Source: a virus | Lineage: Duplodnaviria > Heunggongvirae > Uroviricota > Caudoviricetes | Length of the DNA: 40,352 nt | Strand: one strand, 5' to 3' | Virus record (IMG/VR): IMGVR_UViG_2923302340_000006 | Coordinates: 1 to 40,352 of that record | Shown: piece after piece, positions 2,859 through 29,229 of the stretch | Numbering within the stretch: position 1 is the first letter of the stretch | Layout of the letters: each line of letters starts with the position of its first letter | Notes under the pieces: model-generated | Told to the model about the DNA's origin: nothing | The model's database searches: none | The model's input: the letters and a program-made list of their open reading frames with translations, nothing else | Made by a program: the position numbers and the translations under genes

Positions 2859-3535
2859 GCTGCGTTTTCCTTAATTTGATGAACATTATTGATGCCGTAG
2901 TAATCACAAACAGTGGCATCGACGAAAGAGAGATCGTTATCAATCTCATTGGAGTCAAACATTCCCATTGGGGATTTAACAGTGTCTGCACCGTTGTTTT
3001 TTGTGGTGAAAAAGAACTGGTCATCACGGGTAAGGGTGCGAAGAACTATAGTAAACATGCCTTCGACAGTGATTTTCTCGTCCAGCATTTTGCCGATAGT
3101 TTTCATTTTCACGCGCCCCATAGGGGTTTCTTCGGTGTGTGCAAGAAAATAGACTCTCAGGTCATCAGGTGCATCCTGTGCAGCCTTAATCACCTCCCAT
3201 GCGTGGCGGCCTATCTCAGTAAATTTATCAAACGATTTTTCTTCTGAGCGGCGCATAAACTCATTGCTCATCACATACTGGAAGTCATCAACAATAACGA
3301 TTCTTTTCCCGTATTCGTGAGCACGCTTAATTACGGCAACTATTACGTCCCATTTGTCAGTGGTAACTACGGTTCCTTTTTTTGCTCTGGCATCCCATGC
3401 AAGCCAGTCTTTTGATTTAAATGGTAGCGGCTTGCCTATTGGTTTTATAAGTATTGCTTCCTCGGGATTGATATTTCTCATGCTGGTTGATTTTCCGGTG
3501 CCAGACTCACCGAGTATTAATGTCGCAGTTCCCAT
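2855..3535 (-). CDS. Sak4-like (AAA_24-type) recombination ATPase
   Basis: 226-aa ORF; N-terminal Walker A LILGESGTGKST; size and early-left position typical of phage Sak4/RecA-core ATPases. Confidence 0.65.
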   Translation of the reverse strand: MGTATLILGESGTGKSTSMRNINPEEAILIKPIGKPLPFKSKDWLAWDARAKKGTVVTTDKWDVIVAVIKRAHEYGKRIVIVDDFQYVMSNEFMRRSEEKSFDKFTEIGRHAWEVIKAAQDAPDDLRVYFLAHTEETPMGRVKMKTIGKMLDEKITVEGMFTIVLRTLTRDDQFFFTTKNNGADTVKSPMGMFDSNEIDNDLSFVDATVCDYYGINNVHQIKENAA

Positions 3536-5237: not shown

Positions 5238-5732
5238 ATGGATGTGTTATCTGGTATAACTGCCGCGAAACAGGCTTATGATCTGCTGAAGACAATAAAA
5301 GAAACCAGAGACGATGCTGTTATCGCTAAAGCTATTGGTGATCTACACCAAAGAATAACTGACTTACAGATGCTTAATGCGGAGCTCTCTGGCCTTTATC
5401 AGGCCGAGAAGGAGATCGCAATGAAGCTTCGAGATGAAAATAGAAAAATCAAGATGTTTGTTGTGCAAGCTGAGAATTATGAACTTCATACAACTGAAGG
5501 TGGTTCTGTCGTGTATCGACCTAAGAGTCATTCCGATCCTTCTATTCAGCAGCATAACCTTTGTGCACATTGCTTCGGCGAACATAAAATATCGATACTT
5601 CAACCAAGCACGGTTACTATAAAATCTAATGGGTTCTTTGTGCATTCATGTCCTCGCTGTAAGAATGAATACCGGATGTATAGAGCGCCAGACCCTAAGC
5701 CTGTATATGTACCGCCGCTGACAAATTATTAA
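5238..5732 (+). CDS. hypothetical protein with coiled-coil N-terminus and C-terminal Cys4 zinc ribbon
   Basis: 164-aa ORF on the strand opposite to the surrounding operon; CAHCFGEH ... CPRCKNEY; direct repeats tacccctacag x2 upstream. Confidence 0.5.
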   Translation: MDVLSGITAAKQAYDLLKTIKETRDDAVIAKAIGDLHQRITDLQMLNAELSGLYQAEKEIAMKLRDENRKIKMFVVQAENYELHTTEGGSVVYRPKSHSDPSIQQHNLCAHCFGEHKISILQPSTVTIKSNGFFVHSCPRCKNEYRMYRAPDPKPVYVPPLTNY

Positions 5733-6169: not shown

Positions 6170-6400
6170 CTAAAGAGCTACGTTTGGAAGACAAGTTGAA
6201 CCTTCATATTTTCTGATCAACGTTGTCAGAGTTATAACTTCTGCTCTCATTGCTGGTTTGCGCTTGCATTGCAAGACCACTCGTGAGGTGGTTGGCCTGT
6301 GTAGCTTGTCGGAGCTAATCGCCTCCTGACTTTGCAGGTTTGCGCGACGAGCTCTACGGCGAGAAGCTGCGGTGCCTTTAAATTCTGTTTTTCTGGACAT
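6170..6400 (-). CDS. N: N-like transcription antiterminator
   Basis: Arginine-rich motif near N-terminus (TAASRRRARRANLQ); first gene after the pL/nutL region, lambda-like position; start taken at MSRKTEF. Confidence 0.55.
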   Translation of the reverse strand: MSRKTEFKGTAASRRRARRANLQSQEAISSDKLHRPTTSRVVLQCKRKPAMRAEVITLTTLIRKYEGSTCLPNVAL

Positions 6401-6516
6401 AGATTCCTCCCGAATAAACTTTGGTGATGCAATCTCGAAGCCCCTCCTGAGACGGTTGCTTCGGCATTGCATCCCACAGCTTATGTGGTTGGGTGATCTG
6501 GCTTTTCAGCCACGTA

Positions 6517-6544
6517 GTCGAGTGTTCGACGTTGTTTAAAGAGC
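6517..6544 (-). promoter_or_regulatory. nutL-like site (boxA-like GCTCTTTAAA + CAAC + boxB-like hairpin)
   Basis: On the minus-strand transcript GCUCUUUAAACAAC-GUCGA-ACAC-UCGAC; near-identical layout to the element after cro (9301..9328). Confidence 0.5.
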
Positions 6545-6599
6545 CTGCCAGTCTGTTCCGTTGGGCTTACAGCGTCCTGCTGATGAGTTAACTTTATCG

Positions 6600-6705
6600 G
6601 AATGATAAATTCATGGCAATAGCAAAATGATAAATTGTTTTGGTTTTCAAATATCCTGTTGATTATTATGGTTTTTTATTTGATTGCAGGAATTTATCAG
6701 AAGGA
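6600..6705 (-). promoter_or_regulatory. oL/pL region with repressor operator motifs
   Basis: TGATAAAT at 6603..6610 and 6627..6634 and an inverted-type copy near 6691..6700; same motif as in the cI-cro intergenic region. Confidence 0.5.
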
Positions 6706-6813
6706 ATAAAGAGACTTGAGGGGGATCAGAATTGCGCGTTTTAGTGAGTTGTATCTGTTTATTTTCCAATAAATACAATCGATTATGTGTTTTTAGGTGG
6801 GCGAACGTGAGGC

Positions 6814-6839
6814 AAAGAAAACCCGGCGCTGAGGCCGGG
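6814..6839 (-). terminator. intrinsic terminator ending the cI operon (t_imm-like)
   Basis: Hairpin cccggc-gctgag-gccggg followed on the minus strand by UUUUCUUU; immediately after the stop of the 250-aa gene. Confidence 0.65.
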
Positions 6840-6844
6840 TTGTA

Positions 6845-7597
6845 TTATGCTGCAAGTCTCTTAACCCAAGTCTCTCTTTTGGAGAATGGTAGAACTTGGC
6901 TTGATTCATGGAAGAGTAAGGAGAGTTGTTGCATTTGGTCACCAATTGCTTCGCTGTCTATAACAACAAATCTGTTGTTATACTCCTCACTTGATGCTTT
7001 AAGATCAATTAGTTTCCCAAGCAATGAGTAAGCACTATTCCAGCTTCCTCCGTGTTTCACGCTTGATGTAAAAACGTATTTAGGTATGTCGGTTTTTATT
7101 GTTACAGGGACGGTAATTTGATGTCCACTCAAGCCATATACGTTTTCACGAAGAGAAAGTGCGTCTCTAAGCTCTGTGTGATATAGATAATCAATAACCA
7201 TACTTTCAAACTTTTCAGCTTGAACTGGCTGATACCAGTCTAACGACAAAGTTGATGCGAGTATACCAGCTCTAATTATGTTCGATGTAATCGCACCGAC
7301 ATCCTTTTCTGTTGCCCAAGCAATGATTTCTCCTCGATCATTGAGCTCTGCGCCTTCTTTAAGCAGTAATTGTCGTATCTCATCAAGTCGTTTTTTGGTA
7401 AGCGAGATCCCTCTTGCCTCCATATTCATTAAGGCATCGCATCTATCACTAACTAAATACCTACCATTGACTTCACGGATAAAAGCACCGACATGCTCTC
7501 CATCATCACAGTAAGTGAATGGACTGATAATTCTCAAGGTCTTGCCTATTGGATGGCATTCGAAACCTAGTTGTGAGATCACTGTTGAGCACATCAT
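6845..7597 (-). CDS. unknown protein, distal gene of the cI-adjacent two-gene cassette (rexB position)
   Basis: 250-aa ORF; ATG overlaps the stop of the upstream gene (ATGA); AT-rich; no motif I can assign. Confidence 0.6.
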   Translation of the reverse strand: MMCSTVISQLGFECHPIGKTLRIISPFTYCDDGEHVGAFIREVNGRYLVSDRCDALMNMEARGISLTKKRLDEIRQLLLKEGAELNDRGEIIAWATEKDVGAITSNIIRAGILASTLSLDWYQPVQAEKFESMVIDYLYHTELRDALSLRENVYGLSGHQITVPVTIKTDIPKYVFTSSVKHGGSWNSAYSLLGKLIDLKASSEEYNNRFVVIDSEAIGDQMQQLSLLFHESSQVLPFSKRETWVKRLAA

Positions 7598-8151
7598 ATT
7601 CCAAACCCCATTTGCCCCGACTCATCTTCAAGTGGTAAAGGTATTCTCCCAGAGTAAGTTATGTTCAGATGTTTACAGAAGTAATTCCAATACCCTACCA
7701 GGTCATCTGGGTTTATGTCATCTTCGATTGGAAACGCTATTCTATCACTATAGTATCCAGCTTCTTCATAGTATACATGGTAGTGAGCACCGTAAATGAT
7801 ATCTTGGTACTTCGGATGATCGACCTTGTAACTATTCGTGTGTTTGTCAAAGTGATAGGTATCTACCGCGAAAACCCTCTTGTTATGATAGAAAGCAATA
7901 ATATTTATTTTAGGGTAAGAAATCGGGTCATCAGGTTCTGAATCCTGATCTGGTTTCCATTTCAGTTCAAACTTTAGCCCTTGTATAGGTATACAATCCT
8001 CATCCAAGGGGATGATATGAGCTTGTAGCCACATATCAGAGCGACTTGGTTTCTGTTTCCATTTAACGCCAGAAAAGTTAACTATTTTTTTACAATAAAG
8101 TACTTTATCAACTTCTACTTGGCTTGGCTGATAATCATCTATTTTTGCCAA
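7594..8151 (-). CDS. unknown protein, proximal gene of the cI-adjacent two-gene cassette (rexA position)
   Basis: 185-aa ORF beginning 90 bp downstream of cI on the same strand; apparent TTG start; Asp/Tyr/His-rich; no recognised domain. Confidence 0.55.
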   Translation of the reverse strand: MAKIDDYQPSQVEVDKVLYCKKIVNFSGVKWKQKPSRSDMWLQAHIIPLDEDCIPIQGLKFELKWKPDQDSEPDDPISYPKINIIAFYHNKRVFAVDTYHFDKHTNSYKVDHPKYQDIIYGAHYHVYYEEAGYYSDRIAFPIEDDINPDDLVGYWNYFCKHLNITYSGRIPLPLEDESGQMGFGI

Positions 8152-8241
8152 TGTTTACCGCCCTGTAAATTGTAGATAAAAGTGGTTTCATCACCCAAAC
8201 GTCTCTTCAGGCCACTGGTTACCAGCTATGTGACGATGAAG

Positions 8242-8946
8242 TCACGAACTTTTCAGCCACTCCCTTGCCTCAATGTCATCCAGATGGCGAGATTGCTTCA
8301 GAATACCAGCTACATACTCCACCTTTGCTACTTGATGATAAGGCAACGTTATTGGCCTATGATCCTGGTTGATGCTTGTAAACTGGTATTCTCCGTCTCT
8401 GTCATAGCCAAGAACTTTGATCATGTTGTGTCCTTCAACGGTTCTGACAAACACCTCATCACCCGGGAATACTTTGGTGTTAGGCTCAATGAGTACATAT
8501 TCTCCTGATTTTATTCTAGGCCACATGCTGTCTCCTTTCACACGAAGACCAAAGGCATCTGGATCATCGCTATAAATCTTGAGCCACCCATCGCGCTCTT
8601 CGGTCATCTCGATGGCACCATCAACACCAAGAATTGCCTCACCAACCACGCGCACTAACCCTTTTCTTACCTGACCGACAAAAGTTAAAGAATCTGAGCA
8701 TGATGCAATTGGTGTTACATCATGTACCAAATCAAGCCACCCATTAGGTAACCCAAGTGCGGCTTCGAATTTTCTTGCTAGTTTATCCCCTATGTTTCGA
8801 GTGCTTTTTTCACCGGAGACTTGCGTGAGTTGAGAAGGGCTAACTCCAAGCTTATCGGCAAAGCTTGCATTAGTGTTACCCGCGATTTTTTTATGCTCAT
8901 CTAGCAAAAACGCCAGATTCGATTTGCGAATATCTTTGTTTTCCAT
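8242..8946 (-). CDS. cI: cI-type prophage repressor (HTH + LexA-like S24 autopeptidase domain)
   Basis: 234 aa; N-terminal HTH; C-terminal GDSMWP Ser motif with downstream Lys; divergent from cro. Confidence 0.85.
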   Translation of the reverse strand: MENKDIRKSNLAFLLDEHKKIAGNTNASFADKLGVSPSQLTQVSGEKSTRNIGDKLARKFEAALGLPNGWLDLVHDVTPIASCSDSLTFVGQVRKGLVRVVGEAILGVDGAIEMTEERDGWLKIYSDDPDAFGLRVKGDSMWPRIKSGEYVLIEPNTKVFPGDEVFVRTVEGHNMIKVLGYDRDGEYQFTSINQDHRPITLPYHQVAKVEYVAGILKQSRHLDDIEAREWLKSS

Positions 8947-9059
8947 CCCACGATTCTCCCTCTATTTAGCAAATGGATAAATACGCATTTTGATAAATCT
9001 CCATTGCAGTTTATTTATCAAAATGGTAAAGTTGCTCTGTGTGATAAACGGAGGCACTA
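8947..9059. promoter_or_regulatory. oR/pRM/pR divergent promoter-operator region
   Basis: Three GATAAAT-type sites (about 8973, 8990 and inverted at 9013) between divergent cI and cro. Confidence 0.6.
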
Positions 9060-9293
9060 ATGAGTAATGAACTACTACGCTGGCGAAAAGAGGCTTCTAG
9101 TGAGGAATGGAAGCGACTCGCCGCATTAGCGAATACTTCAGTTGGCTATCTTGATCAGATTGCATATGGGTTTCGAAGAGCTTCCCCAGATAAAGCGAAT
9201 GCAATCGAAGAAGCCACTCGTAATTTCACGGGTTATAAACCTGTGAAAAAGGAAAATCTGGTGTTCGTATCGCGTAGAGCATCAGCAGCATAA
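9060..9293 (+). CDS. cro: Cro-like HTH regulator
   Basis: 77-aa ORF divergent from cI with an HTH-like segment. Confidence 0.65.
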   Translation: MSNELLRWRKEASSEEWKRLAALANTSVGYLDQIAYGFRRASPDKANAIEEATRNFTGYKPVKKENLVFVSRRASAA

Positions 9294-19867: not shown

Positions 19868-20308
19868 ATGGCGCGCCCAACAAAGTATCAAGAGGCGTAC
19901 GCCGAACAGGCACGCAAACTGTGCTTGCTGGGCTACACCGATGCAGAGCTTGCTGATTTCTTCGAAGTCAGTGAGTCAACTATTAACAAGTGGAAGCTTG
20001 ATTATCCTGAGTTTTCGGAGTCCATAAAAAAGGGTAAGGCCGTTGCTGATGCAGAAGTTAGTGACCGTCTTTATCAACGCGCTATGGGCTTCGTGGCTCC
20101 AGACATCGATATTCGTGTTATTGAAAACAGAGTTGTCGAAACTCCGCTTGAGAAGTATTACCCGCCTGATACAACCGCCGCCATCTTCTGGCTTAAGAAC
20201 CGACAGAAGGATAAATGGCGCGACAAGGTTGATCACGAACTAACAGGCAAAGACGGCGGCGCAATTCAGATTGAAACATCACCGATGAGCACTCTATTCG
20301 GAAAATGA
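19868..20308 (+). CDS. terminase small subunit
   Basis: 146 aa; HTH-like GYTDAELADFFEVSESTINKWK; immediately upstream of and overlapping the large terminase. Confidence 0.7.
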   Translation: MARPTKYQEAYAEQARKLCLLGYTDAELADFFEVSESTINKWKLDYPEFSESIKKGKAVADAEVSDRLYQRAMGFVAPDIDIRVIENRVVETPLEKYYPPDTTAAIFWLKNRQKDKWRDKVDHELTGKDGGAIQIETSPMSTLFGK

Positions 20309-21720
20309 CCTCGATTAATCCTATCTTTGAACCGTTCATTGAGGCGCATCGCTACAAAGTCGCCAAAGGCGGTCGAGGTAGCGGTAAGTCATGGGCAATC
20401 GCGAGGCTGCTTGTTGAGGCGGCGCGTCGGCAGCCGGTGCGTATTCTCTGTGCTCGTGAGCTGCAAAACAGTATCAGTGATTCGGTAATCCGGCTGCTTG
20501 AAGACACCATCGAGCGTGAAGGGTATTCGGCTGAGTTTGAAATTCAGCGTTCCATGATTCGTCATCTCGGAACGAATGCTGAATTCATGTTCTACGGCAT
20601 AAAAAACAACCCGACGAAGATTAAATCGCTCGAAGGCATTGATATCTGCTGGGTGGAAGAAGCGGAAGCGGTAACGAAGGAATCATGGGACATCCTGATA
20701 CCAACCATCCGTAAGCCGTTCTCTGAAATATGGGTGAGCTTTAACCCGAAGAACATACTCGACGATACCTATCAGCGATTCGTTGTAAATCCTCCCGATG
20801 ATATTTGCCTGCTGACGGTGAACTACACCGACAACCCGCACTTTCCTGAAGTTCTCCGTCTGGAGATGGAAGAGTGTAAACGCAGAAACCCGACACTGTA
20901 TCGTCACATCTGGCTTGGTGAGCCAGTAAGCGCAAGTGATATGGCAATCATCAAACGTGAATGGCTTGAAGCTGCAACTGATGCGCACAAGCAACTCGGA
21001 TGGAAAGCGAAAGGCGCGGTTGTTTCTGCGCATGACCCATCAGATACAGGGCCAGATGCTAAAGGTTATGCATCGCGCCACGGTTCGGTAGTTAAGCGCA
21101 TTGCCGAAGGCCTGCTGATGGACATCAACGAGGGTGCTGACTGGGCTACTTCGCTGGCGATTGAAGACGGCGCTGACCATTACCTGTGGGATGGTGATGG
21201 TGTTGGTGCCGGGCTACGCAGACAGACAACGGAAGCGTTCTCCGGCAAGAAAATCACCGCCACGATGTTCAAGGGCAGCGAATCGCCATTCGATGAAGAT
21301 GCTCCGTATCAGGCCGGAGCATGGGCTGATGAAGTCGTACAGGGTGACAACGTTCGCACTATTGGTGATGTGTTCCGCAATAAGCGAGCGCAATTCTATT
21401 ACGCGCTGGCTGACAGGCTTTATCTGACATATCGGTCGGTTGTCCACGGTGAGTATGCAGACCCAGACGACATGCTGAGTTTCGACAAAGAAGCGATAGG
21501 CGAGAATATGCTGGAGAAGCTGTTTGCAGAACTGACGCAGATTCAGCGCAAATTCAATAACAACGGGAAGCTGGAGCTTATGACTAAGGTCGAAATGAAG
21601 CAGAAGCTCGGTATTCCATCTCCTAACCTGGCTGATGCGCTGATGATGTGCATGCATTGCCCGGAGTCGGCTGCGCAACCCGACTATTCCAGTTACTCAA
21701 TTCCTTGTGGTGTAGGTTGA
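20305..21720 (+). CDS. terminase large subunit
   Basis: 471 aa; Walker A KGGRGSGKS; size and position as in P22/Sf6-type phages. Confidence 0.9.
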   Translation: MTSINPIFEPFIEAHRYKVAKGGRGSGKSWAIARLLVEAARRQPVRILCARELQNSISDSVIRLLEDTIEREGYSAEFEIQRSMIRHLGTNAEFMFYGIKNNPTKIKSLEGIDICWVEEAEAVTKESWDILIPTIRKPFSEIWVSFNPKNILDDTYQRFVVNPPDDICLLTVNYTDNPHFPEVLRLEMEECKRRNPTLYRHIWLGEPVSASDMAIIKREWLEAATDAHKQLGWKAKGAVVSAHDPSDTGPDAKGYASRHGSVVKRIAEGLLMDINEGADWATSLAIEDGADHYLWDGDGVGAGLRRQTTEAFSGKKITATMFKGSESPFDEDAPYQAGAWADEVVQGDNVRTIGDVFRNKRAQFYYALADRLYLTYRSVVHGEYADPDDMLSFDKEAIGENMLEKLFAELTQIQRKFNNNGKLELMTKVEMKQKLGIPSPNLADALMMCMHCPESAAQPDYSSYSIPCGVG

Positions 21721-21721
21721 T

Positions 21722-23920
21722 ATGGCAGAAAAAAAGATGAATGACTGGCATCGCAAGGTGCTGTGCAACTTTGATAATGCCTGGTCAGCAACGCAGGATA
21801 TGCGTGAGCAGATTATTGAGGCTCAACGTTTCGTCCGGGTATCCGGCGCACAGTGGGAAGGCAGCACAAACGCTGGTTACTCATTTGATGAAGGCAGGTT
21901 TGAGCATTACCCGCGCTTTGAACTGAATAAGATTGCCCGTGAATGTGATCGCATCATTGGCGAGTATCGACAGAATCGCATCAGCGTTAAATTCAGGCCG
22001 AAGGATGACAAGGCATCGGAAGCGTTAGCCGAAAAGATGAACGGCAAATTCCGCGCTGACTATCAGGAAACATCCGGTGGCGAAGCGTGTGATAACGCAT
22101 TTGATGATGCTGTAACGGGCGGATTCGGTTGTTTCCGCATGTGTGCCGATTACGAAGATGAAATGGACCCAAGTAACGAGCAGCGACGCATCAGCCTTCT
22201 TCCTGTTTACGACCCGGCGACATGCGTCTTCTTCGATCAGGACAGCAAACAATATGACCGCTCTGATGCTATGTGGGCTATGGAAATGTTCTCCATGACG
22301 CCTAAAGCGTTCGAGGCTGAATACCCTGATTCCATTGCGGCAAGCCTTTCTCGGGATGACACTGGTACTCAGTATGACTGGTCAACGCCTGACGCCATCT
22401 ATGTTGGACGTTACTACGAAGTTCGCATAGAGAAGGTGAAGCTCACGGCGTGGCGCAACCCTGTTAGCGGAGAAACGGCAATCTATGATGAAGAGCAAAT
22501 CAAAGATATTGTCGACGAGCTGACCGATGGTGCATTCGAACTGATTGGCGAGCGAACGGTGAAGAAGCGCCGCGTTTATTGCGGTCTTCTGTCTGGCGCT
22601 GAATGGCTGGAAGAACCGAAGCGTATTCCGGGTGAACATATTCCTCTCATCCCGGTATATGGGCGTCGCTCATTTGTTGATAATCAGGAGCGAATCGAAG
22701 GCCACGCAGCAAAAGCGATGGATGCACAGCGTCTTGAGAACCTGATGGTTTCCATGATTGCAGATAACGCTACTCAGGCTGGCGGTGATGGCATTCCTGT
22801 AGTTGATGTTGACATGATTCCTGGTCCTCTCGCCACTCATTGGGCGGAGCGCAACAAAAAGCGCCCGGCGTTCCTGCCGATGGTCAGTCTGAAAAACAAA
22901 AACGGAGATATTACTGCGCAGGCTCAGGTCAGCAGTTATACGCCTCCGACACAAATGCCTCCAGCTCTTGCCGGGCTATTGCAGTACACCGGAACGGCTA
23001 TTCAGCAAATTACAGGTGCGTCGCAGCTTGAGAACATGCCGAGCAACGTCGCTACTGATACCGTTGATAGCATTTTTAACCGGATGGACACGCAGTCCTA
23101 TATCTACATGGACAACATGGCTAAATCTATGCGTCGCGCTGGCGTTGTGTGGCTTTCTATGGCGCGTGAAGTCTATGGCAGCGATACGCCGATGCGTATC
23201 GTTAATGAGGACGGCAGCGATGACGTGGCGCTGATGACTGGTGAAGTGGTTGACCGTCAGACAGGGCAGGTTATCGCGCTTAACGACCTTTCGCAGGGTA
23301 ACTATGAAGTGACTGTCGATGTCGGTCAGTCGTTCGCTACTCGCCGTGATGCAACGGTTAAGTCGTTACTTTCCATGCTGGCACTTATCCCACCAGGAAC
23401 GCCGAAGCACGACCTTGTATCGTCGATGATTCTCGACAATATGGATGGCGAAGGGATGGACGACCTGAAAGAATACAACCGCAATCAGTTGCTTCTGTCT
23501 GGCGTTATCAAGCCGAGAACGCCTGAAGAACAGCAGATGGTTGAGCAGGCGAAACAACAACAGGCCAGTCAGCCAGATCCGGCTATGGTTGCAGCGCAAG
23601 GTCAGCTTCTTGCAGGTCAGGCTGAATTGCAGAAAGCGCAGAACGAACAGGCAGCCATTCAGGTTAAAGCATTCCAGGCACAGACTGATGCTCAGGTTGC
23701 AGCGGCAAACGTTGTGAAAATCCTCGCATCTGCCGATAGCCAGCAGAAATCTGATATCCGCGAGGCTCTGAAACTGCTTGGACAGTTCCAGCAACAGCAA
23801 GGAGATAATGCCCGTGCTGATGCAGAGCTTGTCCTGAAAAGTCAGGCACAGGGCCATGCGCAGCGCATGGACATCAGCAGCATCCTGCAAAAATCAACTC
23901 AGCAACAACCACAGCAGTAA
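21722..23920 (+). CDS. portal protein (P22 gp1-like)
   Basis: 732 aa; resembles P22 portal (GEHIPLIPVYG; TPEEQQMVEQAKQQQASQPDPAMVAAQGQLLAGQAELQKAQNEQ). Confidence 0.9.
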   Translation: MAEKKMNDWHRKVLCNFDNAWSATQDMREQIIEAQRFVRVSGAQWEGSTNAGYSFDEGRFEHYPRFELNKIARECDRIIGEYRQNRISVKFRPKDDKASEALAEKMNGKFRADYQETSGGEACDNAFDDAVTGGFGCFRMCADYEDEMDPSNEQRRISLLPVYDPATCVFFDQDSKQYDRSDAMWAMEMFSMTPKAFEAEYPDSIAASLSRDDTGTQYDWSTPDAIYVGRYYEVRIEKVKLTAWRNPVSGETAIYDEEQIKDIVDELTDGAFELIGERTVKKRRVYCGLLSGAEWLEEPKRIPGEHIPLIPVYGRRSFVDNQERIEGHAAKAMDAQRLENLMVSMIADNATQAGGDGIPVVDVDMIPGPLATHWAERNKKRPAFLPMVSLKNKNGDITAQAQVSSYTPPTQMPPALAGLLQYTGTAIQQITGASQLENMPSNVATDTVDSIFNRMDTQSYIYMDNMAKSMRRAGVVWLSMAREVYGSDTPMRIVNEDGSDDVALMTGEVVDRQTGQVIALNDLSQGNYEVTVDVGQSFATRRDATVKSLLSMLALIPPGTPKHDLVSSMILDNMDGEGMDDLKEYNRNQLLLSGVIKPRTPEEQQMVEQAKQQQASQPDPAMVAAQGQLLAGQAELQKAQNEQAAIQVKAFQAQTDAQVAAANVVKILASADSQQKSDIREALKLLGQFQQQQGDNARADAELVLKSQAQGHAQRMDISSILQKSTQQQPQQ

Positions 23921-24010
23921 TTAACCCATAACGTGCAATGGCTGTCTTTATGAGGCCTGGCACCCTATTGCCTTCCGATGGGCTGAACATCGAGTAAACA
24001 GGGGTAACAA

Positions 24011-24904
24011 ATGGACCAGATGGCAGAAAACACACCAGAAGTTGAAATCGAAACCGACGCGTCAGAGCAGATTCCTGATGATGTCGAACTGGCTGAAGAA
24101 GTCGAAACAGAAGATGGCAGTGAGTCCTCTGGCAATGATGCAGAGGAAGCTACTGAAACTGATGACGACGAATCAGAACAGGAATTCTACTTTGGTGACG
24201 AAAAGCTGGATTCGCCAACCAGCGAAGATGGCGCAGAGCATGGACTGGTAAAACACTTGCGCAAGACGATTAAAGAGAAAGACCGTGAGCTGAAAGAGCT
24301 GATGCGTCAGTCTCAGAAGCCCGTCGAGCAGCAGCCGGTAATCACTCAACCACCGCGAATGCCAAAACTGGATGATGAGGACATCGGTTTCGATGAAGAA
24401 ATCTACCAGCAACGCATGGCTAAGTGGGCAGAGGATAACGGCAAGTACCAGGAGCAAGTACGAGAGCGGAAACGAGAGGAAGAGGCGCGTACCGCAACGC
24501 TTCAGCAGAAAGCAGCCAATTACATGCAGAGAGTAAAAGCACTGAAAGTGGCTGGCTACCAGGATGCAGAGCAGGCTGTACGCGAAGATGTTCCTGTTCA
24601 TATTCAGGACATGATCCTTCTTGAGTCAGAGAAGCCGGAAATCGTTGTTCTGGCACTCGGTCGCAACGCTGAACTGCGCAAGCAACTGGCAGAAGCTACC
24701 AACCCCGTAGCAATTGGTCGTCTGCTGGAACGTATCGAATCGAAGGCCAGAATCATGCCAAAAGCAAAAACCACGGCAGCCACAACCCCGACAGTTAAGG
24801 GGAGCAACGGCGCAGTAATCAATAACCTCGACAAACTGAAAGCCAAGGCGCTGGAAACTGGTGACTGGACGCCGTATTTCGCCGCTAAAAAGGCAAAAAA
24901 ATAA
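24011..24904 (+). CDS. scaffolding protein (P22 gp8-like)
   Basis: 297 aa; highly acidic N-terminus, helical, between portal and coat. Confidence 0.75.
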   Translation: MDQMAENTPEVEIETDASEQIPDDVELAEEVETEDGSESSGNDAEEATETDDDESEQEFYFGDEKLDSPTSEDGAEHGLVKHLRKTIKEKDRELKELMRQSQKPVEQQPVITQPPRMPKLDDEDIGFDEEIYQQRMAKWAEDNGKYQEQVRERKREEEARTATLQQKAANYMQRVKALKVAGYQDAEQAVREDVPVHIQDMILLESEKPEIVVLALGRNAELRKQLAEATNPVAIGRLLERIESKARIMPKAKTTAATTPTVKGSNGAVINNLDKLKAKALETGDWTPYFAAKKAKK

Positions 24905-24922
24905 CCTATCGGAGCATTAAGC

Positions 24923-26176
24923 ATGGCTAACCAATTAGCAAAAGACCTTGAAATCATGTTCGAAAACTACGTTGAAGGATTTGAGGCCGCCTGCGTAGTT
25001 TCCCGTAACGCTAAAAAATTCCGTCCCGGTGATACAGCAATGCAGCGAGCAGGTGATGTTCTGTATCGTCCGCAGCATTACCACATGAACATTGAGGAAG
25101 GCCTCGACCTCAGCAGCAAAACGCCAACAGCACTGGTTCAGCGCCTTGTTCCTTCTGTGTTCAAGGAGCCGAAAAACATTCTGTACACTCTGGATGCGCG
25201 TGAAATGCGTGACCCGGAACATAAAACTGAAGCTGGTCGCGCCGCAGGTATGCGCCTTGCTGCACAGATTGACTCTGACCTGATTTCCATGGTCACGCAG
25301 CGTGCTACTAACGTGATCACAATGGCTGACTCAACCACTGGTTCACAGGGCCGTGATTTGTGGAACTGTGCGGCAGGTATTGATGCCACCATGACGGCGA
25401 TTGGTGTACCACAGGGTATCAACCGTCGCTCTTTCTGGAACCCCTTCAACTACAAAGACCTTGCTGGCGAGCTTGGTCACCGTGCCTATGCTCAGGGCGC
25501 AACCCTGACAGCATACGAAAAAGCGCAAATCCCTCCGGTTGCGTCCTTTGATAGCTACAAGACCGATATTTCTGGTCGTGTTCCGAAGGGTACAGCAACT
25601 TCCCTGACGCTGGCGGCTGAACCTGCGCACAAGGTTGAAGCGAAAGATGCCAACGATATGCCAGTGGATAACCGACAGGGGACCATTACGGTATCTGCAT
25701 CTGGTTTGCAGGTTGGCGATGCGTTCACCATTGCTGGCGTGAATTCCGTACACCAGATCACCAAAGATACCACCGGGCAGCCGCAGGTATTCCGCGTTCT
25801 GGCAGTAAGCGGAACGACAGTAACTATCTCCCCGAAAATTCTGCCGCCTGACAACGCTGATGTCGCCAGCCGACCATATGCAAACGTTGATGCTAACGCG
25901 GCAAATGGTGCAGCAATTACCATTCTCAACAAAAATGCCGCACCTGCTAACCTGTTCTGGGCTGATGGTTCTGTTGAGCTGATGTACGGCAAACTGGCGT
26001 TCCCGACTGGTCAGGGTCCACAGGTAATGACAGCAACCACCGAGCAGGGCGCTACGCTGATCATGTCTTACGCCTTCGACCACATCAAAGGCGTAACCAC
26101 TGCTCGTTTCACCACTCTGTACGGTTGCTCTGTACTTGTTCCTGAATATACGGGCATCGTTATTGCCGGGCAGTAA
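24923..26176 (+). CDS. major coat protein (P22 gp5-like)
   Basis: 417 aa; conserved blocks resembling P22 coat (YANVDANAANGAAITILNKNAA; NLFWADGS). Confidence 0.85.
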   Translation: MANQLAKDLEIMFENYVEGFEAACVVSRNAKKFRPGDTAMQRAGDVLYRPQHYHMNIEEGLDLSSKTPTALVQRLVPSVFKEPKNILYTLDAREMRDPEHKTEAGRAAGMRLAAQIDSDLISMVTQRATNVITMADSTTGSQGRDLWNCAAGIDATMTAIGVPQGINRRSFWNPFNYKDLAGELGHRAYAQGATLTAYEKAQIPPVASFDSYKTDISGRVPKGTATSLTLAAEPAHKVEAKDANDMPVDNRQGTITVSASGLQVGDAFTIAGVNSVHQITKDTTGQPQVFRVLAVSGTTVTISPKILPPDNADVASRPYANVDANAANGAAITILNKNAAPANLFWADGSVELMYGKLAFPTGQGPQVMTATTEQGATLIMSYAFDHIKGVTTARFTTLYGCSVLVPEYTGIVIAGQ

Positions 26177-26183
26177 TTTGGGT

Positions 26184-26205
26184 GGGGCTTCGGCCCCATT
26201 TTTAT
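26184..26205 (+). terminator. intrinsic terminator after coat gene
   Basis: ggggc-ttcg-gcccc followed by ATTTTTA. Confidence 0.75.
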
Positions 26206-26217
26206 TGGGAGAAGACA

Positions 26218-26406
26218 ATGGCACGAACAATGCTCTATAAGCCGGGCAACATGATCACCTGTGGTCAGGTTGCTGTCGATTACATCATTGTTGATGACGA
26301 AGAAGTTAAATCTCACCTGAAAAAAGGCTGGGTAAAAGCTCCTGAAGAAACCGCAACGAAGCAAAAAGTGGCTAAGGCGGAAGAAGATGGCGAAAACGAA
26401 GGGTGA
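26218..26406 (+). CDS. small hypothetical protein between coat and gp4
   Basis: 62 aa from ATG 26218 (RBS GGGAGAAG). Confidence 0.4.
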   Translation: MARTMLYKPGNMITCGQVAVDYIIVDDEEVKSHLKKGWVKAPEETATKQKVAKAEEDGENEG

Positions 26407-26848
26407 TCTCGTTCTAAAGGCTTTACGAAAAGCCGGGCTGTATTCCAATGCCACGTTGACAGATGCTGACCCTCAGGCAATTGAAGATGCCATTAATGAC
26501 CTCGAAGACATGATGGCAGCATGGCAGGCTAAAGGTATCGAGCTTGGATATCAGTTTGCGGATACAGAAAACGGCATCATGCCGTTACCTGACGATGATT
26601 CAGGTATCCCTGCATGGGCAAATGATGGCGTCGCTTTGAAGCTCGCTGTGCAAGTGTGCATGGATAACGTCATTCAGCCGTCGGATGCTCTCCTGACCGC
26701 TGCTGACAGTGCATATCAGACAATCTGTATCGCTTTAACCAAAATACCACCACTTGAGCGACGAAATGATATGCCTCGCGGTAGTGGTAACAAAAGCGCG
26801 TTTACGTGGAATCGGTTTTACATCGAGAAAGATGATCCGAGTACGTGA
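26387..26848 (+). CDS. head completion protein (P22 gp4-like)
   Basis: 153 aa; N-terminus KTKGDLV..LRK.G..S.ATLTD..PQ...DA..DLE.MMA.W resembles P22 gp4. Confidence 0.75.
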   Translation: MAKTKGDLVLKALRKAGLYSNATLTDADPQAIEDAINDLEDMMAAWQAKGIELGYQFADTENGIMPLPDDDSGIPAWANDGVALKLAVQVCMDNVIQPSDALLTAADSAYQTICIALTKIPPLERRNDMPRGSGNKSAFTWNRFYIEKDDPST

Positions 26849-26857
26849 GGTGAATAA

Positions 26858-28276
26858 ATGCCGATTCAGCAACTTCCACTCATGAAAGGCGTCGGCAAAG
26901 ACTTTCGAAACGCCGACTATATCGACTATCTGCCAGTGAATATGCTGGCTACACCCAAAGAAATCCTGAACAGCAGCGGATATCTTCGCTCATTCCCGGG
27001 CATTGCCAAACGTTCTGATGTGAACGGTATATCGCGCGGCGTCGAGTACAACATGGCGCAGAGTGCTGTTTATCGCGTGTGTGGTGGCAAGCTGTATAAG
27101 GGCGAAAGTGAAGTCGGTGATGTTGCCGGAAGTGGTCGTGTATCAATGGCGCATGGTCGGACATCTCAGGCTGTAGGCGTTAATGGTCAACTGGTCGAGT
27201 ATCGCTATGATGGCACGGTTAAAACCGTCTCAAACTGGCCTACAGACAGCGGATTCACTCAGTATGAGTTAGGTTCAGTCCGCGACATTACACGCTTACG
27301 TGGGCGTTATGCGTGGTCAAAAGACGGCACGGATTCATGGTTTATCACTGACCTTGAAGACGAATCGCATCCTGACCGTTACAGCGCACAATATCGTGCC
27401 GAGTCGCAGCCTGACGGCATCATCGGAATCGGAACATGGCGAGACTTCATCGTCTGCTTTGGTTCATCGACGATTGAATATTTCTCCCTGACTGGTGCAA
27501 CCACAGTTGGTGCTGCTTTGTATGTCGCACAGCCATCGCTGATGGTGCAAAAAGGCATCGCCGGGACTTACTGCAAAACGCCGTTTGCTGATTCCTATGC
27601 GTTTATCAGCAATCCGGCAACAGGTGCGCCGTCTGTATACATCATCGGCTCCGGTCAGGTGTCACCAATCGCCAGCGCGAGCATTGAGAAAATCCTCCGC
27701 TCCTACACTGCTGATGAACTGGCTGATGGCGTGATGGAATCGTTGCGCTTTGATGCGCATGAGTTGCTGATTATCCATCTTCCGCGCCACGTACTCGTGT
27801 ACGACGCATCTTCAAGCGCCAATGGTCCGCAATGGTGTGTGTTGAAAACAGGCCTGTATGACGATGTGTACCGCGCTATCGACTTCATTTACGAAGGCAA
27901 TCAGATAACGTGCGGCGATAAGCTGGAATCTGTTACCGGGAAACTGCAGTTCGATATCAGCAGCCAGTACGACAAGCAACAGGAACACCTGCTGTTTACT
28001 CCACTCTTCAAAGCAGATAACGCCAGAGTTTTCGACCTTGAGGTTGAATCGTCAACTGGCGTTGCGCAGTACGCCGACCGCCTTTTTCTCTCTGCAACCA
28101 CTGACGGCATCAATTACGGGCGTGAGCAGATGATTGAGCAGAATGAACCGTTCGTTTATGACAAACGTGTTTTGTGGAAGCGAGTCGGGCGCATCAGGAA
28201 AAATGTCGGCTTCAAATTGCGCGTTATCACGAAGTCACCTGCCACTCTGTCAGGCTGCCAGATAAGGATTGAGTAA
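26858..28276 (+). CDS. head completion / DNA stabilisation protein (P22 gp10-like)
   Basis: 472 aa; near-identical to P22 gp10 as I recall it ([11 protein letters not shown]...). Confidence 0.9.
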
Positions 28277-29229
28277 TGGCTGATTCGAATCTCAATGAGC
28301 CGGTAATCATTCAGGCTACACGACTCGACACATCAGTCCTTCCACGCAATATCTTCTCGCAGTCATATCTGTTGTACGTTATCGCACAGGGTGCTGATGT
28401 TGGTAACGTGGCTAACAAGGCCAACGAAGCAGGGAAGGGGGCTTATGATGCACAGGTGAAGAATGATGAGCAGGATGTCACCCTTGCAGACCATGAATCC
28501 AGAATTGAAGCTGCTGAAGCAACTCTCATCAATCATGAACATAGAATTGCAGCAGCGGAAAGCACTTTTGCAGAACATGAAACAAGGATTACGGCTGCTG
28601 AAACAGAGCTGGCTGATCACGAGACGCGAATTGCTGCCAATGAATCTGAGTTAGCAAACCATGATGCGCGCATAACTCAGAATACAACCGATATCGACGC
28701 ACTTGATACCAGGCTCACAGCGGCAGAGGGAAGTATTTCGACGCTACAAAGCACAGTTGGTGACCACTCAACAAGAATATCTGCGCTTGAGTATGCCACC
28801 ACGCGCAAGAAATCAGAGGTTGTTTACTCAGGAGTATCTGTAACCATCCCGACAGCGCCGACCAACCTTGTTAGCCTGCTGAAAACGCTCACGCCGTCAT
28901 CCGGCACATTGGCACCATTCTTCGACACCGTTAACAACAAGATGGTTGTGTTCAACGAGAACAAAACCCTGTTCTTCAAGCTGTCGATCGTCGGGACGTG
29001 GCCCAGCGGAACCGCCAACAGGTCAATGCAGCTAACCTTTTCCGGCTCTGTTCCTGACACGTTGGTCAGCAGTCGTAATGCGGCGACAACAACCGACAAC
29101 ATCCTGTTAGCTACGTTCTTCAGCGTGGATAAAGACGGCTTTCTTGCCACAAATGGCAGCACGTTAACCATTCAGTCAAATGGTGCGGCGTTTACTGCCA
29201 CAACCATCAAGATAATCGCGGAGCAGTGA
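28276..29229 (+). CDS. tail needle protein (P22 gp26-like) with extra C-terminal knob domain
   Basis: 317 aa; N-terminus [18 protein letters not shown]... as in P22 gp26; repeats in the central coiled coil; ~130-aa C-terminal domain not in P22. Confidence 0.85.
28485..28680 (+). repeat. five imperfect 42-bp tandem repeats encoding 14-aa coiled-coil units of the tail needle
   Basis: Units [14 protein letters not shown] / [14 protein letters not shown] / [14 protein letters not shown] / [14 protein letters not shown] / [14 protein letters not shown]. Confidence 0.7.

What the first reader, a model, noticed from the sequence alone, without database searches (positions are those of the whole stretch)
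6845..8151. Unrecognised two-gene cassette in the rexA/rexB position downstream of cI
Two translationally coupled genes (185 aa then 250 aa, ATGA overlap) follow cI on the same strand and end at an intrinsic terminator (6814..6839) before the oL/pL region. This is the layout lambda uses for its lysogen-expressed exclusion system RexAB. Both are AT-rich compared with the neighbouring lambda-like genes and I cannot assign either product to any domain or defence family. This is my leading candidate for an undescribed prophage-encoded defence or exclusion system.
Basis: partly seen in the sequence, partly recalled or inferred. Interest (0 to 1): 0.85.

Follow-up and report, generated by a model that had tools for sequence, protein, structure and literature searches.

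The report
Repressor-linked two-gene prophage defence candidate
Two overlapping genes of unknown function sit directly behind the repressor gene of this E. coli prophage, where phage lambda keeps its RexAB exclusion system; they are real, always paired, distantly related to an untested catalogue entry (PADLOC candidate PDC-M24), and a good but unproven phage-defence candidate.

Summary
Gene A (7594-8151, minus strand, 185 aa, TTG start) and gene B (6845-7597, 250 aa) overlap by ATGA. They follow cI (8242-8946) with no terminator between and end at a strong intrinsic terminator (stem 6820-6841) before oL.

The cassette is not entirely unrecognised. B carries Pfam DUF1828 and matches PADLOC PDC-M24B over its full length. 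A weakly matches PDC-M24A/DUF6978. PDC-M24 is a computational, untested "phage defence candidate" (Payne et al. 2024).

A and B were adjacent in every locus where adjacency was checked, from E. coli to Aeromonas and Pseudomonas phages. They lie behind at least ten unrelated S24 repressor families. A fossil 3' end of a lambda-type cI sits just upstream of A.

Neither protein resembles RexA or RexB, and neither has a membrane segment. The B model has two domains, and its fold matches are of two kinds: restriction-endonuclease fold, without the catalytic motif, and type III secretion chaperones. A is a beta-rich protein with no solved structural relative, an invariant Asp/His/Asn/HxH cluster and a conserved C-terminal tail.

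My best reading is a lysogen-expressed anti-phage module and a divergent prophage branch of PDC-M24. Function and mechanism are untested. The cassette occurs in 239 of 5426 complete E. coli genomes, including Nissle 1917.

The parts
8242..8946 (-). Resident cI repressor (234 aa, HTH + Peptidase_S24), first gene of the cI-A-B transcription unit
8190..8218 (-). Fossil 3' end of a lambda-type cI gene (CAGTGGCCTGAAGAGACGTTTGGGTGA = QWPEETFG-stop) between the resident cI stop and gene A. It marks the right-hand edge of the shared cassette block.
   Evidence: 27/28 nt identical to the end of lambda cI. The 24-mer is exact in EcN, PhiR57_1 and in loci whose A is only 68% identical. It occurs once in the window, with 0 expected.
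7594..8151 (-). Gene A: 185 aa, TTG start, soluble acidic beta-rich protein. Deep invariants are K22 W31 R92 D97 (H104) N106 G121 H123 H125 F158 P173. It has a conserved low-confidence C-terminal tail (SGQxGFxx). It is a weak relative of DUF6978 / PDC-M24A.
7594..7597 (-). ATGA stop/start overlap of A and B (translational coupling)
   Evidence: The same 4-nt overlap is seen in Aeromonas, Thorsellia, Klebsiella, metagenomic and Pseudomonas-phage loci.
6845..7597 (-). Gene B: 250 aa, soluble. Pfam DUF1828 matches residues 26-110, and the model has a second domain at 127-250. Fold matches are to restriction-endonuclease (PD-(D/E)xK) folds and type III secretion chaperones; I infer the N-terminal domain is the chaperone-like one and the C-terminal domain the endonuclease-like one. 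The canonical catalytic motif is absent. B matches PDC-M24B over its full length.
6811..6841 (-). Intrinsic terminator ending the cI-A-B unit (8-bp stem with 6 GC pairs, then a U-rich tract), analogous to lambda tImm
6724..8218 (-). Extent of the mobile cassette block: 98.8% identical to phages ev017, ev207, PhiR57_1, PhiR63_2 and to E. coli Nissle 1917 prophage 3, which carry a different cI/cro
6603..6699 (.). oL-side operator cluster: three copies of TGATAAAT, the octamer also clustered at oR (8991-9020)

Best explanation
The cassette is an accessory ('moron') operon extension of the prophage repressor gene. It encodes a two-protein cytoplasmic module that most likely protects the lysogen against other phages. 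It is a divergent, prophage-borne branch of the PADLOC candidate family PDC-M24.

Shown:
- cI, A and B are co-oriented, with no terminator between cI and A and a strong terminator after B.
- A starts at a weak codon (TTG here, GTG in a relative). B's ATG overlaps A's stop.
- A and B were adjacent in every locus where adjacency was checked, down to 21-33% identity.
- The pair sits behind many unrelated repressors.
- A evolves faster than B.

Inferred (about 0.6): in the lysogen the pair is transcribed with cI from the maintenance promoter, as lambda rexAB and Salmonella bstA are, and it acts against superinfecting phages.

Inferred more weakly (about 0.15-0.2 for the whole chain):
- A and B form a complex. 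B's chaperone-like N-terminal domain holds A, plausibly through A's conserved, disordered C-terminal SGQxGF tail.
- B's restriction-endonuclease-fold C-terminal domain has lost the D...(D/E)xK residues but keeps a GxSGH loop. It would bind nucleic acid or a nucleotide rather than cut DNA.
- A's invariant D97/H104/N106/H123-x-H125 cluster is a metal site. It would belong either to the effector or to the fast-evolving sensor of a phage product.
- Infection changes the complex and blocks phage development, by abortive infection or direct interference.
For: Layout and coupling.

Same slot as lambda rexAB, bracketed by oL/oR-type operator clusters.

A fossil lambda-type cI 3' end lies directly upstream of A, so the cassette once sat immediately behind a lambda-type cI, where lambda has rexA.

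Obligate pairing and repressor linkage:
- One A protein (P0006) sits behind at least five different repressor types.
- The same arrangement occurs in Aeromonas, Thorsellia and Klebsiella.
- A-family members at about 22-28% identity are still followed by a DUF1828 gene, two of them behind an S24 protein.
- 80/80 IMG/VR loci have A next to B, with 13 clusters of upstream neighbour, 10 carrying the S24 motif.
- A Pseudomonas D3-like phage has CI, then one gene, then an unannotated A, then B.

Link to a defence candidate:
- B matches PDC-M24B at E 4.4e-10 over its full length, and 11/11 family members match (best 1.8e-15).
- A matches PDC-M24A at E 4.8e-4, and 6/10 distant A members independently hit PDC-M24A models.
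- Gene order (small protein, then DUF1828) is the same.
- PDC-M24 was defined from cassettes embedded in BREX/DISARM/type I RM loci.

Company in the slot: a second PDC candidate (DUF3024 = PDC-S43, E 2e-36) is inserted between cI and A in some prophages.

Literature: the cI-N interval is a known site of lysogen-expressed exclusion genes, and bstA there is transcribed from the cI promoter (PMC7067206).

A diverges faster than B in every locus pair.
Against: - No experiment exists for this pair or for PDC-M24. The 145 PDC systems are explicitly untested, and no paper mentions PDC-M24, the protein accessions, or a function for DUF1828/DUF6978.
- A's link to PDC-M24A/DUF6978 is weak. It is below Pfam's gathering score (22 against 29.6 bits) and covers only residues 104-164.
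- No recognised effector is present. There is no catalytic PD-(D/E)xK motif in B, no membrane segment, and no match to any validated defence family in PADLOC.
- Which B domain carries which fold was inferred from secondary-structure order, not from residue-level superposition.
- Co-transcription with cI is inferred from sequence only.
- The cassette is not among the 21 systems recovered in the E. coli fosmid selection against T4, lambda-vir and T7. I could not verify that a carrier strain was in that library.
Confidence: 0.5

Rival explanations
1. A toxin-antitoxin-like addiction module that stabilises the prophage. One partner would be toxic and the other would neutralise it, with no dedicated anti-phage role.
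For: Two small, translationally coupled, strictly co-inherited genes. The partners evolve at unequal rates. A has a conserved, disordered C-terminal tail that could be a docking or degradation element. B has a chaperone-like domain.
Against: Neither protein hits a toxin or antitoxin family in Pfam, NCBIfam or PADLOC. There is no DNA-binding antitoxin-type domain. Both proteins are large for type II pairs. The position inside the repressor operon, rather than an autoregulated stand-alone operon, is atypical. Many TA-like pairs act in defence anyway, so this rival overlaps the main explanation.
Confidence: 0.12
2. A modulator of the prophage's own lysis-lysogeny switch or induction. It would be analogous to the reported regulatory role of lambda RexA (my own knowledge, not checked here), not an exclusion system.
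For: Immediate linkage to the repressor in every locus where the neighbourhood was read. B has a nuclease-fold domain without catalytic residues, which could be a DNA-binding module.
Against: The same cassette, 98.8% identical, serves different cI/cro pairs. The family sits behind at least ten unrelated S24 repressor families and behind short non-S24 HTH repressors. It therefore cannot depend on one operator or repressor specificity. Its relatives (PDC-M24) were defined from loci embedded in restriction/BREX systems outside prophages.
Confidence: 0.13
3. A direct restriction-type nuclease. B's endonuclease-fold domain, perhaps with metal-binding A as cofactor or specificity subunit, would cut incoming phage DNA.
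Against: The D...(D/E)xK triad is absent from the positions expected on strands 2 and 3 of the C-terminal domain. K173 and D214 are not conserved in distant members. There is no partner methyltransferase or other self-protection gene. Foldseek support is weak (E at least 0.014).
Confidence: 0.1
4. A host-fitness moron unrelated to phages, for example in stress tolerance, metabolism or virulence, like lambda lom/bor.
For: It is lysogen-expressed by position. It is widespread in extra-intestinal and commensal B2-type strains, including Nissle 1917, NU14 and UPEC isolates. No defence domain is recognised.
Against: Both proteins are cytoplasmic, with no signal peptide or membrane segment evident. 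The pair is distributed across phages of very different hosts, from Pseudomonas and Aeromonas to Thorsellia, always at the repressor. It relates to cassettes embedded in RM/BREX loci and keeps company with PDC-S43.
Confidence: 0.08

Closest known systems
PADLOC 'phage defence candidate' PDC-M24 (Payne et al. 2024, bioRxiv 10.1101/2024.01.29.577857; cassette CAS_00098, FAM_00129>>FAM_00065)
   Same: It is a two-gene, co-oriented cassette with a small protein first and a roughly 255-aa DUF1828-type protein second. B aligns to the PDC-M24B models end to end (2-249 of 250 against 4-254 of 256, E 4.4e-10; 11/11 family members hit). A and six of ten distant A relatives hit PDC-M24A models over the C-terminal half.
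   Different: A is 185 aa against about 148 aa, and only residues 104-164 align (E 4.8e-4). Pfam DUF6978 is below threshold. The context is a prophage repressor operon, not embedded in BREX/DISARM/type I RM. PDC-M24 itself is untested, so this comparison transfers no mechanism.
Lambda RexA/RexB exclusion system
   Same: It occupies the same slot and has the same architecture: two genes directly behind cI on the same strand, ending at a terminator before oL/pL. A fossil lambda-type cI end upstream of A shows the cassette once occupied that very position.
   Different: There is no sequence similarity (E above 0.3). RexB is known as a polytopic membrane protein (my knowledge), while A and B have no hydrophobic segment (max 19-residue Kyte-Doolittle score 0.45 and 1.19). 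The RexA structure 8TWQ is in the PDB but is not among the listed fold matches.
BstA of Salmonella prophage BTP1 (Owen et al. 2021, PMC8585504; Owen et al. 2020, PMC7067206)
   Same: It is an accessory locus immediately downstream of the cI repressor, between cI and N. It is transcribed from the cI promoter and acts as prophage-encoded abortive-infection defence.
   Different: BstA is a single protein. PADLOC reported no family other than PDC-M24 for A or B.
Two-domain sensor + PD-(D/E)xK nucleases Can2/Card1 and type II restriction enzymes (NgoMIV, PspGI, BstEII)
   Different: Pfam assigns B's N-terminal domain to DUF1828, not CARF. B also gives separate Foldseek matches to type III secretion chaperones. 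The catalytic D...(D/E)xK residues are not conserved. Similarity is at fold level only (6-13% identity), and Foldseek E-values are above 0.01.

Membership tests
PADLOC PDC-M24 (candidate, untested) | Second gene matches a PDC-M24B model | tested here: met
   E 4.4e-10, residues 2-249 against model 4-254/256. All 11 family members match (best 1.8e-15).
PADLOC PDC-M24 (candidate, untested) | First gene matches a PDC-M24A model (DUF6978-type) | tested here: inconclusive
   E 4.8e-4, 18 bits, residues 104-163 only. Pfam DUF6978 scores 22 bits, below the gathering score of 29.6. Six of ten distant A relatives give similar weak hits. Whether PADLOC's own thresholds would call it was not testable here.
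PADLOC PDC-M24 (candidate, untested) | Two adjacent co-oriented genes in the order A then B | tested here: met
PADLOC PDC-M24 (candidate, untested) | Founding members embedded within BREX, DISARM or type I RM loci | tested here: not met
   Where the neighbourhood could be read, the pair lay in a prophage or phage immunity region behind a repressor; two metagenomic contigs showed no recognisable repressor. None was seen inside an RM/BREX locus. Embedding is how the family was found, not a requirement for homologues.
Lambda RexAB | Position: two genes downstream of cI, same strand, ending at a terminator before oL/pL | tested here: met
Lambda RexAB | Homology to RexA | tested here: not met
   BLASTP E 11 and 18. 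8TWQ is absent from the listed fold matches.
Lambda RexAB | Second component is a polytopic membrane protein homologous to RexB | tested here: not met
   BLASTP E 0.34. No hydrophobic segment in A or B.
PD-(D/E)xK (restriction endonuclease-like) nucleases | alpha-beta-beta-beta-alpha-beta core fold | tested here: met
PD-(D/E)xK (restriction endonuclease-like) nucleases | Conserved catalytic D ... (D/E)-x-K residues | tested here: not met
   Deep invariants of the C-terminal domain are G155, S157, G158, (H159), P164, T177, G194 and D198. No acidic-x-Lys is conserved on strand 3, and K173 is lost in distant members.
Pfam DUF1828 | Score above the Pfam gathering threshold | tested here: met
   35.5 bits against 22, residues 26-110. 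11/11 family members match. One member weakly hits DUF1829 (E 0.049).

The most novel reading that the evidence does not exclude
The pair is a mechanistically new two-protein anti-phage system of temperate phages. A beta-rich, metal-binding protein of a fold with no solved relative (A) would be held or controlled by a protein (B) that joins a secretion-chaperone-like peptide-binding domain to a catalytically dead restriction-endonuclease fold. This would be an effector/sensor logic not represented among characterised defence systems. It would also validate and give a mechanism to the untested PDC-M24 family.
Probability: 0.22. Interest if true: 0.75.

Novelty: new variant of a known kind. Interest (0 to 1): 0.57.

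Why it matters
The cI-N interval of lambdoid prophages is where RexAB, the first abortive-infection system ever described, and BstA both reside. This cassette is one of the commoner occupants of that slot in E. coli. It is in 239 of 5426 complete genomes, including the probiotic Nissle 1917, the species type strain ATCC 11775, UPEC strains and an Stx1a-converting phage. Yet it has no known function, and neither protein has a sequence relative among solved structures.

If it defends, it adds a widespread, prophage-borne system that current annotation tools probably miss, because A scores below family thresholds. That is relevant to phage therapy host range, and to the reported but unexplained phage resistance of Nissle 1917 linked to prophage 3. 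It would also give the first functional anchor for DUF1828, DUF6978 and PDC-M24.

The test is cheap: a 1.5-kb insert and a phage panel. If it does not defend, it is a clean counter-example to guilt-by-position in this slot.

Tried and rejected
1. Hammerhead-like or other RNA element in the conserved leader upstream of A. The 'CUGAAGAG...GAAAC' string looked suggestive. However, Rfam found nothing there at E up to 1 over 6400-9100, and the fold is unremarkable (z -0.37). The conservation is explained by the sequence being the fossil end of a lambda-type cI gene.

2. Direct experimental evidence from E. coli Nissle 1917. Bury et al. 2018 attribute lambda/Stx-phage resistance to a prophage-3 'phage repressor' gene. 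Mapping their primers shows the cloned gene is the cII homologue (L010 6550-6919). It is neither cI nor the cassette, so it says nothing about A-B.

3. Sequence relatives with solved structures. There are none for either protein, as single sequences or as profiles. A single-sequence hit of A to a designed Kelch-type propeller (8pjr, E 4e-6, no stretch passing on its own) disappeared with the family profile, and I discounted it.

5. Validated defence families. PADLOC reported no family other than PDC-M24 for either protein. NCBIfam gave nothing, and both PHROGs are 'unknown function'.

6. Literature. Searches for PDC-M24, DUF1828, DUF6978 and the RefSeq accessions found no relevant text. The Gifsy-1 HepS paper is an unrelated single HEPN protein.

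7. The afdb50 fold library was unavailable. I could not test structural similarity of A to DUF6978 models.

8. Reaching bona fide DUF6978 proteins from the A family by profile search failed. Only 20 representatives at E up to 1e-3 were found among 1.84 billion, and the word-indexed profile search added only a few metagenomic members.
Full report
**What is there**

The window is a P22-like lambdoid prophage. It is 100% identical to one in E. coli CFSAN018748, which carries integrase, lambda-type early genes, a P22-type virion module and an immI region.

On the minus strand the order is as follows:
- cI at 8242-8946, an HTH plus Peptidase_S24 protein.
- A 90-nt spacer.
- Gene A at 7594-8151, 185 aa, TTG start.
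- Gene B at 6845-7597, 250 aa. Its ATG overlaps A's TGA as ATGA.
- Two bases after B's stop, an intrinsic terminator: stem 6841-6820, 8 bp with 6 GC pairs, then a U-rich tract (-16.8 kcal/mol, z -3.2).

The cI-A spacer has no terminator-like site and no unusual structure (z -0.37).

The octamer TGATAAAT is over-represented (7 copies against 2.2 expected). It clusters at 6603-6699 and 8991-9020, which are the oL and oR sides of the block.

RefSeq calls the same two CDS with the same ends.

Cassette GC is 0.394, against 0.47 for the window and 0.445 for cI. Other leftward early genes are just as AT-rich, so composition alone is not distinctive.

**Comparison with lambda**

Lambda has cI, rexA, rexB, tImm and oL in the same order and orientation.

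A and B have no sequence similarity to RexA or RexB (E from 0.34 to 18). Neither has a hydrophobic segment (maximum 19-residue hydropathy 0.45 and 1.19). The solved RexA structure 8TWQ is in the library but is not among the listed fold matches of either model.

The resemblance is one of position and layout only.

**A fossil that documents the history**

The 29 nt at 8190-8218 read CAGTGGCCTGAAGAGACGTTTGGGTGA. This translates as QWPEETFG-stop and is 27/28 identical to the 3' end of lambda cI. The resident cI is a different protein that ends ...REWLKSS.

The 24-nt core is exact in E. coli Nissle 1917, in phage PhiR57_1, and in enterobacterial prophages whose A protein is only 68% identical. In some of these it occurs twice: once as the real end of a lambda-type cI and once as the fossil.

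The block shared at 98.8% with ev017, ev207, PhiR57_1, PhiR63_2 and Nissle prophage 3 runs from this fossil (8218) to about 120 nt beyond B's stop (6724). It then breaks off where the immunity-specific oL sequences begin.

The cassette is thus a roughly 1.5-kb module. It once lay directly behind a lambda-type cI, where lambda has rexA, and it has since been recombined into other immunity regions.

**Distribution and linkage**

The cassette is present at 80% coverage or more in 239 of 5426 complete E. coli genomes. These include Nissle 1917, the type strain ATCC 11775 and several UPEC/ExPEC strains. It is also in four isolated coliphages plus an Stx1a-converting phage.

Homologues of A (59-71% identity) and B (48-84%) occur in Salmonella, Klebsiella, Yersinia, Serratia, Xenorhabdus, Photorhabdus, Providencia, Pectobacterium, Erwinia, Aeromonas and Thorsellia.

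One A protein (P0006) sits behind at least five different repressor types in six prophage contexts.

In Aeromonas, Thorsellia and Klebsiella the order repressor, A, B with the 4-nt overlap is kept. In Klebsiella the repressor is a short HTH protein without S24.

Even A-family members at about 22-28% identity are followed by a DUF1828 gene. Two of them lie behind an S24 protein.

In 80 IMG/VR loci retrieved with the B profile:
- All 80 have A directly upstream.
- The same-strand upstream neighbour falls into 13 clusters, 10 carrying the S24 GxSM motif.
- The rest are short HTH repressors, or an extra small gene inserted after the repressor.

A Pseudomonas D3-like phage has CI, one extra gene, an unannotated A homologue (L105 2986-3504) and then B, again with a 4-nt overlap.

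A diverges faster than B in every pair, for example 68 against 79, 47 against 64 and 40 against 52 % identity.

The A family is tiny. Only 20 representatives at E up to 1e-3 were found among 1.84 billion cluster representatives.

**What the proteins are**

*Protein B.* B passes Pfam's threshold for DUF1828 at residues 26-110. It aligns end to end with PADLOC PDC-M24B (E 4.4e-10), and all 11 family members tested match (best 1.8e-15). One member also weakly hits DUF1829.

The AlphaFold model has pLDDT 85. Its pTM of 0.55 reflects two domains, 1-120 and 127-250.

From the strand-helix order I assign the endonuclease fold to the C-terminal domain and the chaperone-like fold to the DUF1828 domain. 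This assignment is inferred, not superposed.

The deep invariants of the C-terminal domain are G155, S157, G158, (H159), P164, T177, G194 and D198. They do not include the D...(D/E)xK triad. K173 and D214 are lost in distant members. The N-terminal domain keeps C3, C14, S25-P26, D32-G33, D51, (D54), R70 and G89-E90.

*Protein A.* A matches PHROG 2017, of unknown function. It hits PDC-M24A (E 4.8e-4) and Pfam DUF6978 (22 bits, below the 29.6 cut-off) only weakly, over residues 104-164. However, 6 of 10 distant A relatives independently hit PDC-M24A models and 5 of 10 hit DUF6978 over the same region.

Across the family the invariants are K22, W31, R92, D97, N106, G121, H123, H125, F158 and P173, with H104 nearly so. 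An acidic residue lies 3-4 positions after the HxH. I read this as a probable metal site, which is an inference.

The last ten residues (…SGQMGFGI; Pseudomonas phage …FGQMGFDV) are conserved but modelled with pLDDT below 50. That is typical of a docking peptide.

Neither protein has a sequence relative in the PDB, as a single sequence or as a profile.

**What PDC-M24 is**

PADLOC's PDC entries come from Payne et al. 2024 (bioRxiv 10.1101/2024.01.29.577857). The authors collected gene cassettes found embedded inside BREX, DISARM or type I RM loci and filtered out mobile and housekeeping functions. They listed the survivors as 145 'phage defence candidates' that the authors state are untested.

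PDC-M24 is the two-gene cassette CAS_00098 (FAM_00129>>FAM_00065).

No paper in the searchable library mentions PDC-M24. None gives a function for DUF1828 or DUF6978, or cites the RefSeq accessions.

So the window's pair is best filed as a divergent, prophage-borne branch of an already catalogued but unvalidated candidate family. B's membership is clear. A's is only suggestive.

**How it most likely works**

*Shown.* The genes form one co-oriented unit with cI, closed by a terminator. A has a weak start codon (TTG here, GTG in a relative), and B is translationally coupled. The pair is strictly co-inherited. It is independent of repressor type.

*Established context.* The cI-N interval is a recognised site for lysogen-expressed accessory loci such as rexAB and bstA, and bstA is transcribed from the cI promoter (PMC7067206; PMC8585504).

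*Additional guilt by association.* In some prophages a second PDC candidate (DUF3024 = PDC-S43, E 2e-36) is inserted between cI and A.

*Inference.* The pair is expressed with cI in the lysogen and acts against other phages (I put this at about 0.6).

The specific chain is much less certain (about 0.15-0.2):
- B's chaperone-like domain grips A's conserved tail.
- B's degenerate endonuclease fold binds nucleic acid or a nucleotide.
- A's metal site belongs to the effector or to the fast-evolving sensor.
- Infection remodels the complex and stops phage growth.

The main evidence against is the complete lack of experiments, the absence of any recognised effector chemistry, and the weakness of the fold and A-family matches. 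The cassette is also not among the 21 systems recovered by the E. coli fosmid selection against T4, lambda-vir and T7. I could not establish that a carrier strain was in that library.

**Rivals**

- A toxin-antitoxin-like stabilisation module. No TA family hits; it overlaps with defence.
- A modulator of the prophage's own switch. This is hard to reconcile with service behind ten or more unrelated repressors and with non-prophage relatives.
- A direct restriction-type nuclease. The catalytic motif is absent and there is no self-protection gene.
- A phage-unrelated fitness moron. Both proteins are cytoplasmic, and the pair has a phage-wide distribution across host orders.

**A false lead worth recording**

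Bury et al. 2018 reported that a 'phage repressor' gene of Nissle 1917 prophage 3 reduces plating of lambda and Stx phages about 200-fold. They speculated that other prophage-3 genes contribute.

Nissle prophage 3 carries this cassette, with an A protein identical to the window's (WP_001062368.1). However, their primers map to the cII homologue. The paper provides no evidence on A-B, though it makes Nissle a convenient strain in which to test them.

**Verdict**

Novelty: a new variant of a known kind. The cassette is a repressor-linked prophage moron in the rexAB slot and a divergent branch of candidate PDC-M24. Interest is moderate to good (0.57). The locus is common, cheap to test and built from two proteins with no known chemistry. 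But the slot's role and the family's candidacy are already in the literature.

Noticed in passing
window 8190-8218 (minus strand): A 29-nt fossil of the 3' end of a lambda-type cI gene (QWPEETFG-stop) sits between the resident, unrelated cI and gene A. It is 27/28 nt identical to lambda. The 24-nt core is exact in loci whose A protein is only 68% identical, and it is duplicated in some of them. It marks an old recombination junction.
   Followed up: yes
L010 (E. coli Nissle 1917 NZ_CP022686.1) 6550-6919: The 'phage repressor pr' gene (EcN_1294) that Bury et al. 2018 cloned and credited with lambda/Stx-phage resistance maps, by its primers, to the cII homologue of prophage 3. It is not a cI-type repressor.
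   Followed up: yes
L058 2052-2393; L105 2180-2830: The slot between repressor and gene A can hold an extra gene. One is a DUF3024 protein matching PADLOC candidate PDC-S43 (E 2e-36) in some enterobacterial prophages. Another is a 216-aa protein weakly matching PDC-S48 (E 3e-6) in Pseudomonas phage phPA-G. A third locus (L100 2127-2369) has an 80-aa hydrophobic protein there.
   Followed up: partly
L105 (Pseudomonas phage VB_PaD_phPA-G, PP083311.1) 2986-3504: An unannotated ORF encodes a homologue of gene A (MAK... start, RVVAID, HxNK, HPHLH, C-terminal FGQMGFDV). It overlaps the start of the annotated B homologue by 4 nt, so the deposited annotation misses it.
   Followed up: partly
window 5238-5732 (plus strand): A 164-aa ORF with CxxC...CxxC motifs lies on the opposite strand to the leftward early genes, near where lambda has sieB. 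It has no convincing Pfam or PADLOC family (only a marginal PADLOC Cas10 hit, E 0.0035). It may be another lysogen-expressed accessory gene.
   Followed up: partly
window 6170-6597 (L001 7471-7898): RefSeq annotates a short antitermination protein N (231 nt) preceded by a frameshifted hypothetical pseudogene. The mechanical ORF list shows overlapping 100-aa and 76-aa ORFs here, so the N start and reading frame look uncertain.
   Followed up: no
window 7594-8151 and homologues: Gene A starts with a non-ATG codon in the two loci inspected (TTG in the window, GTG in L003), while the N-terminus MAK is conserved across the close homologues. This suggests deliberately low translation of A relative to the coupled B.
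   Followed up: partly
window about 20000-36500 (L009): The virion half of the prophage is P22-like (portal, P22 coat, gp4/gp10, needle, ejection proteins, Arc/Mnt-type immI with antirepressor, tailspike-like head-binding protein), joined to lambda-type O/P/ren replication genes. It is integrated next to dacD.
   Followed up: no
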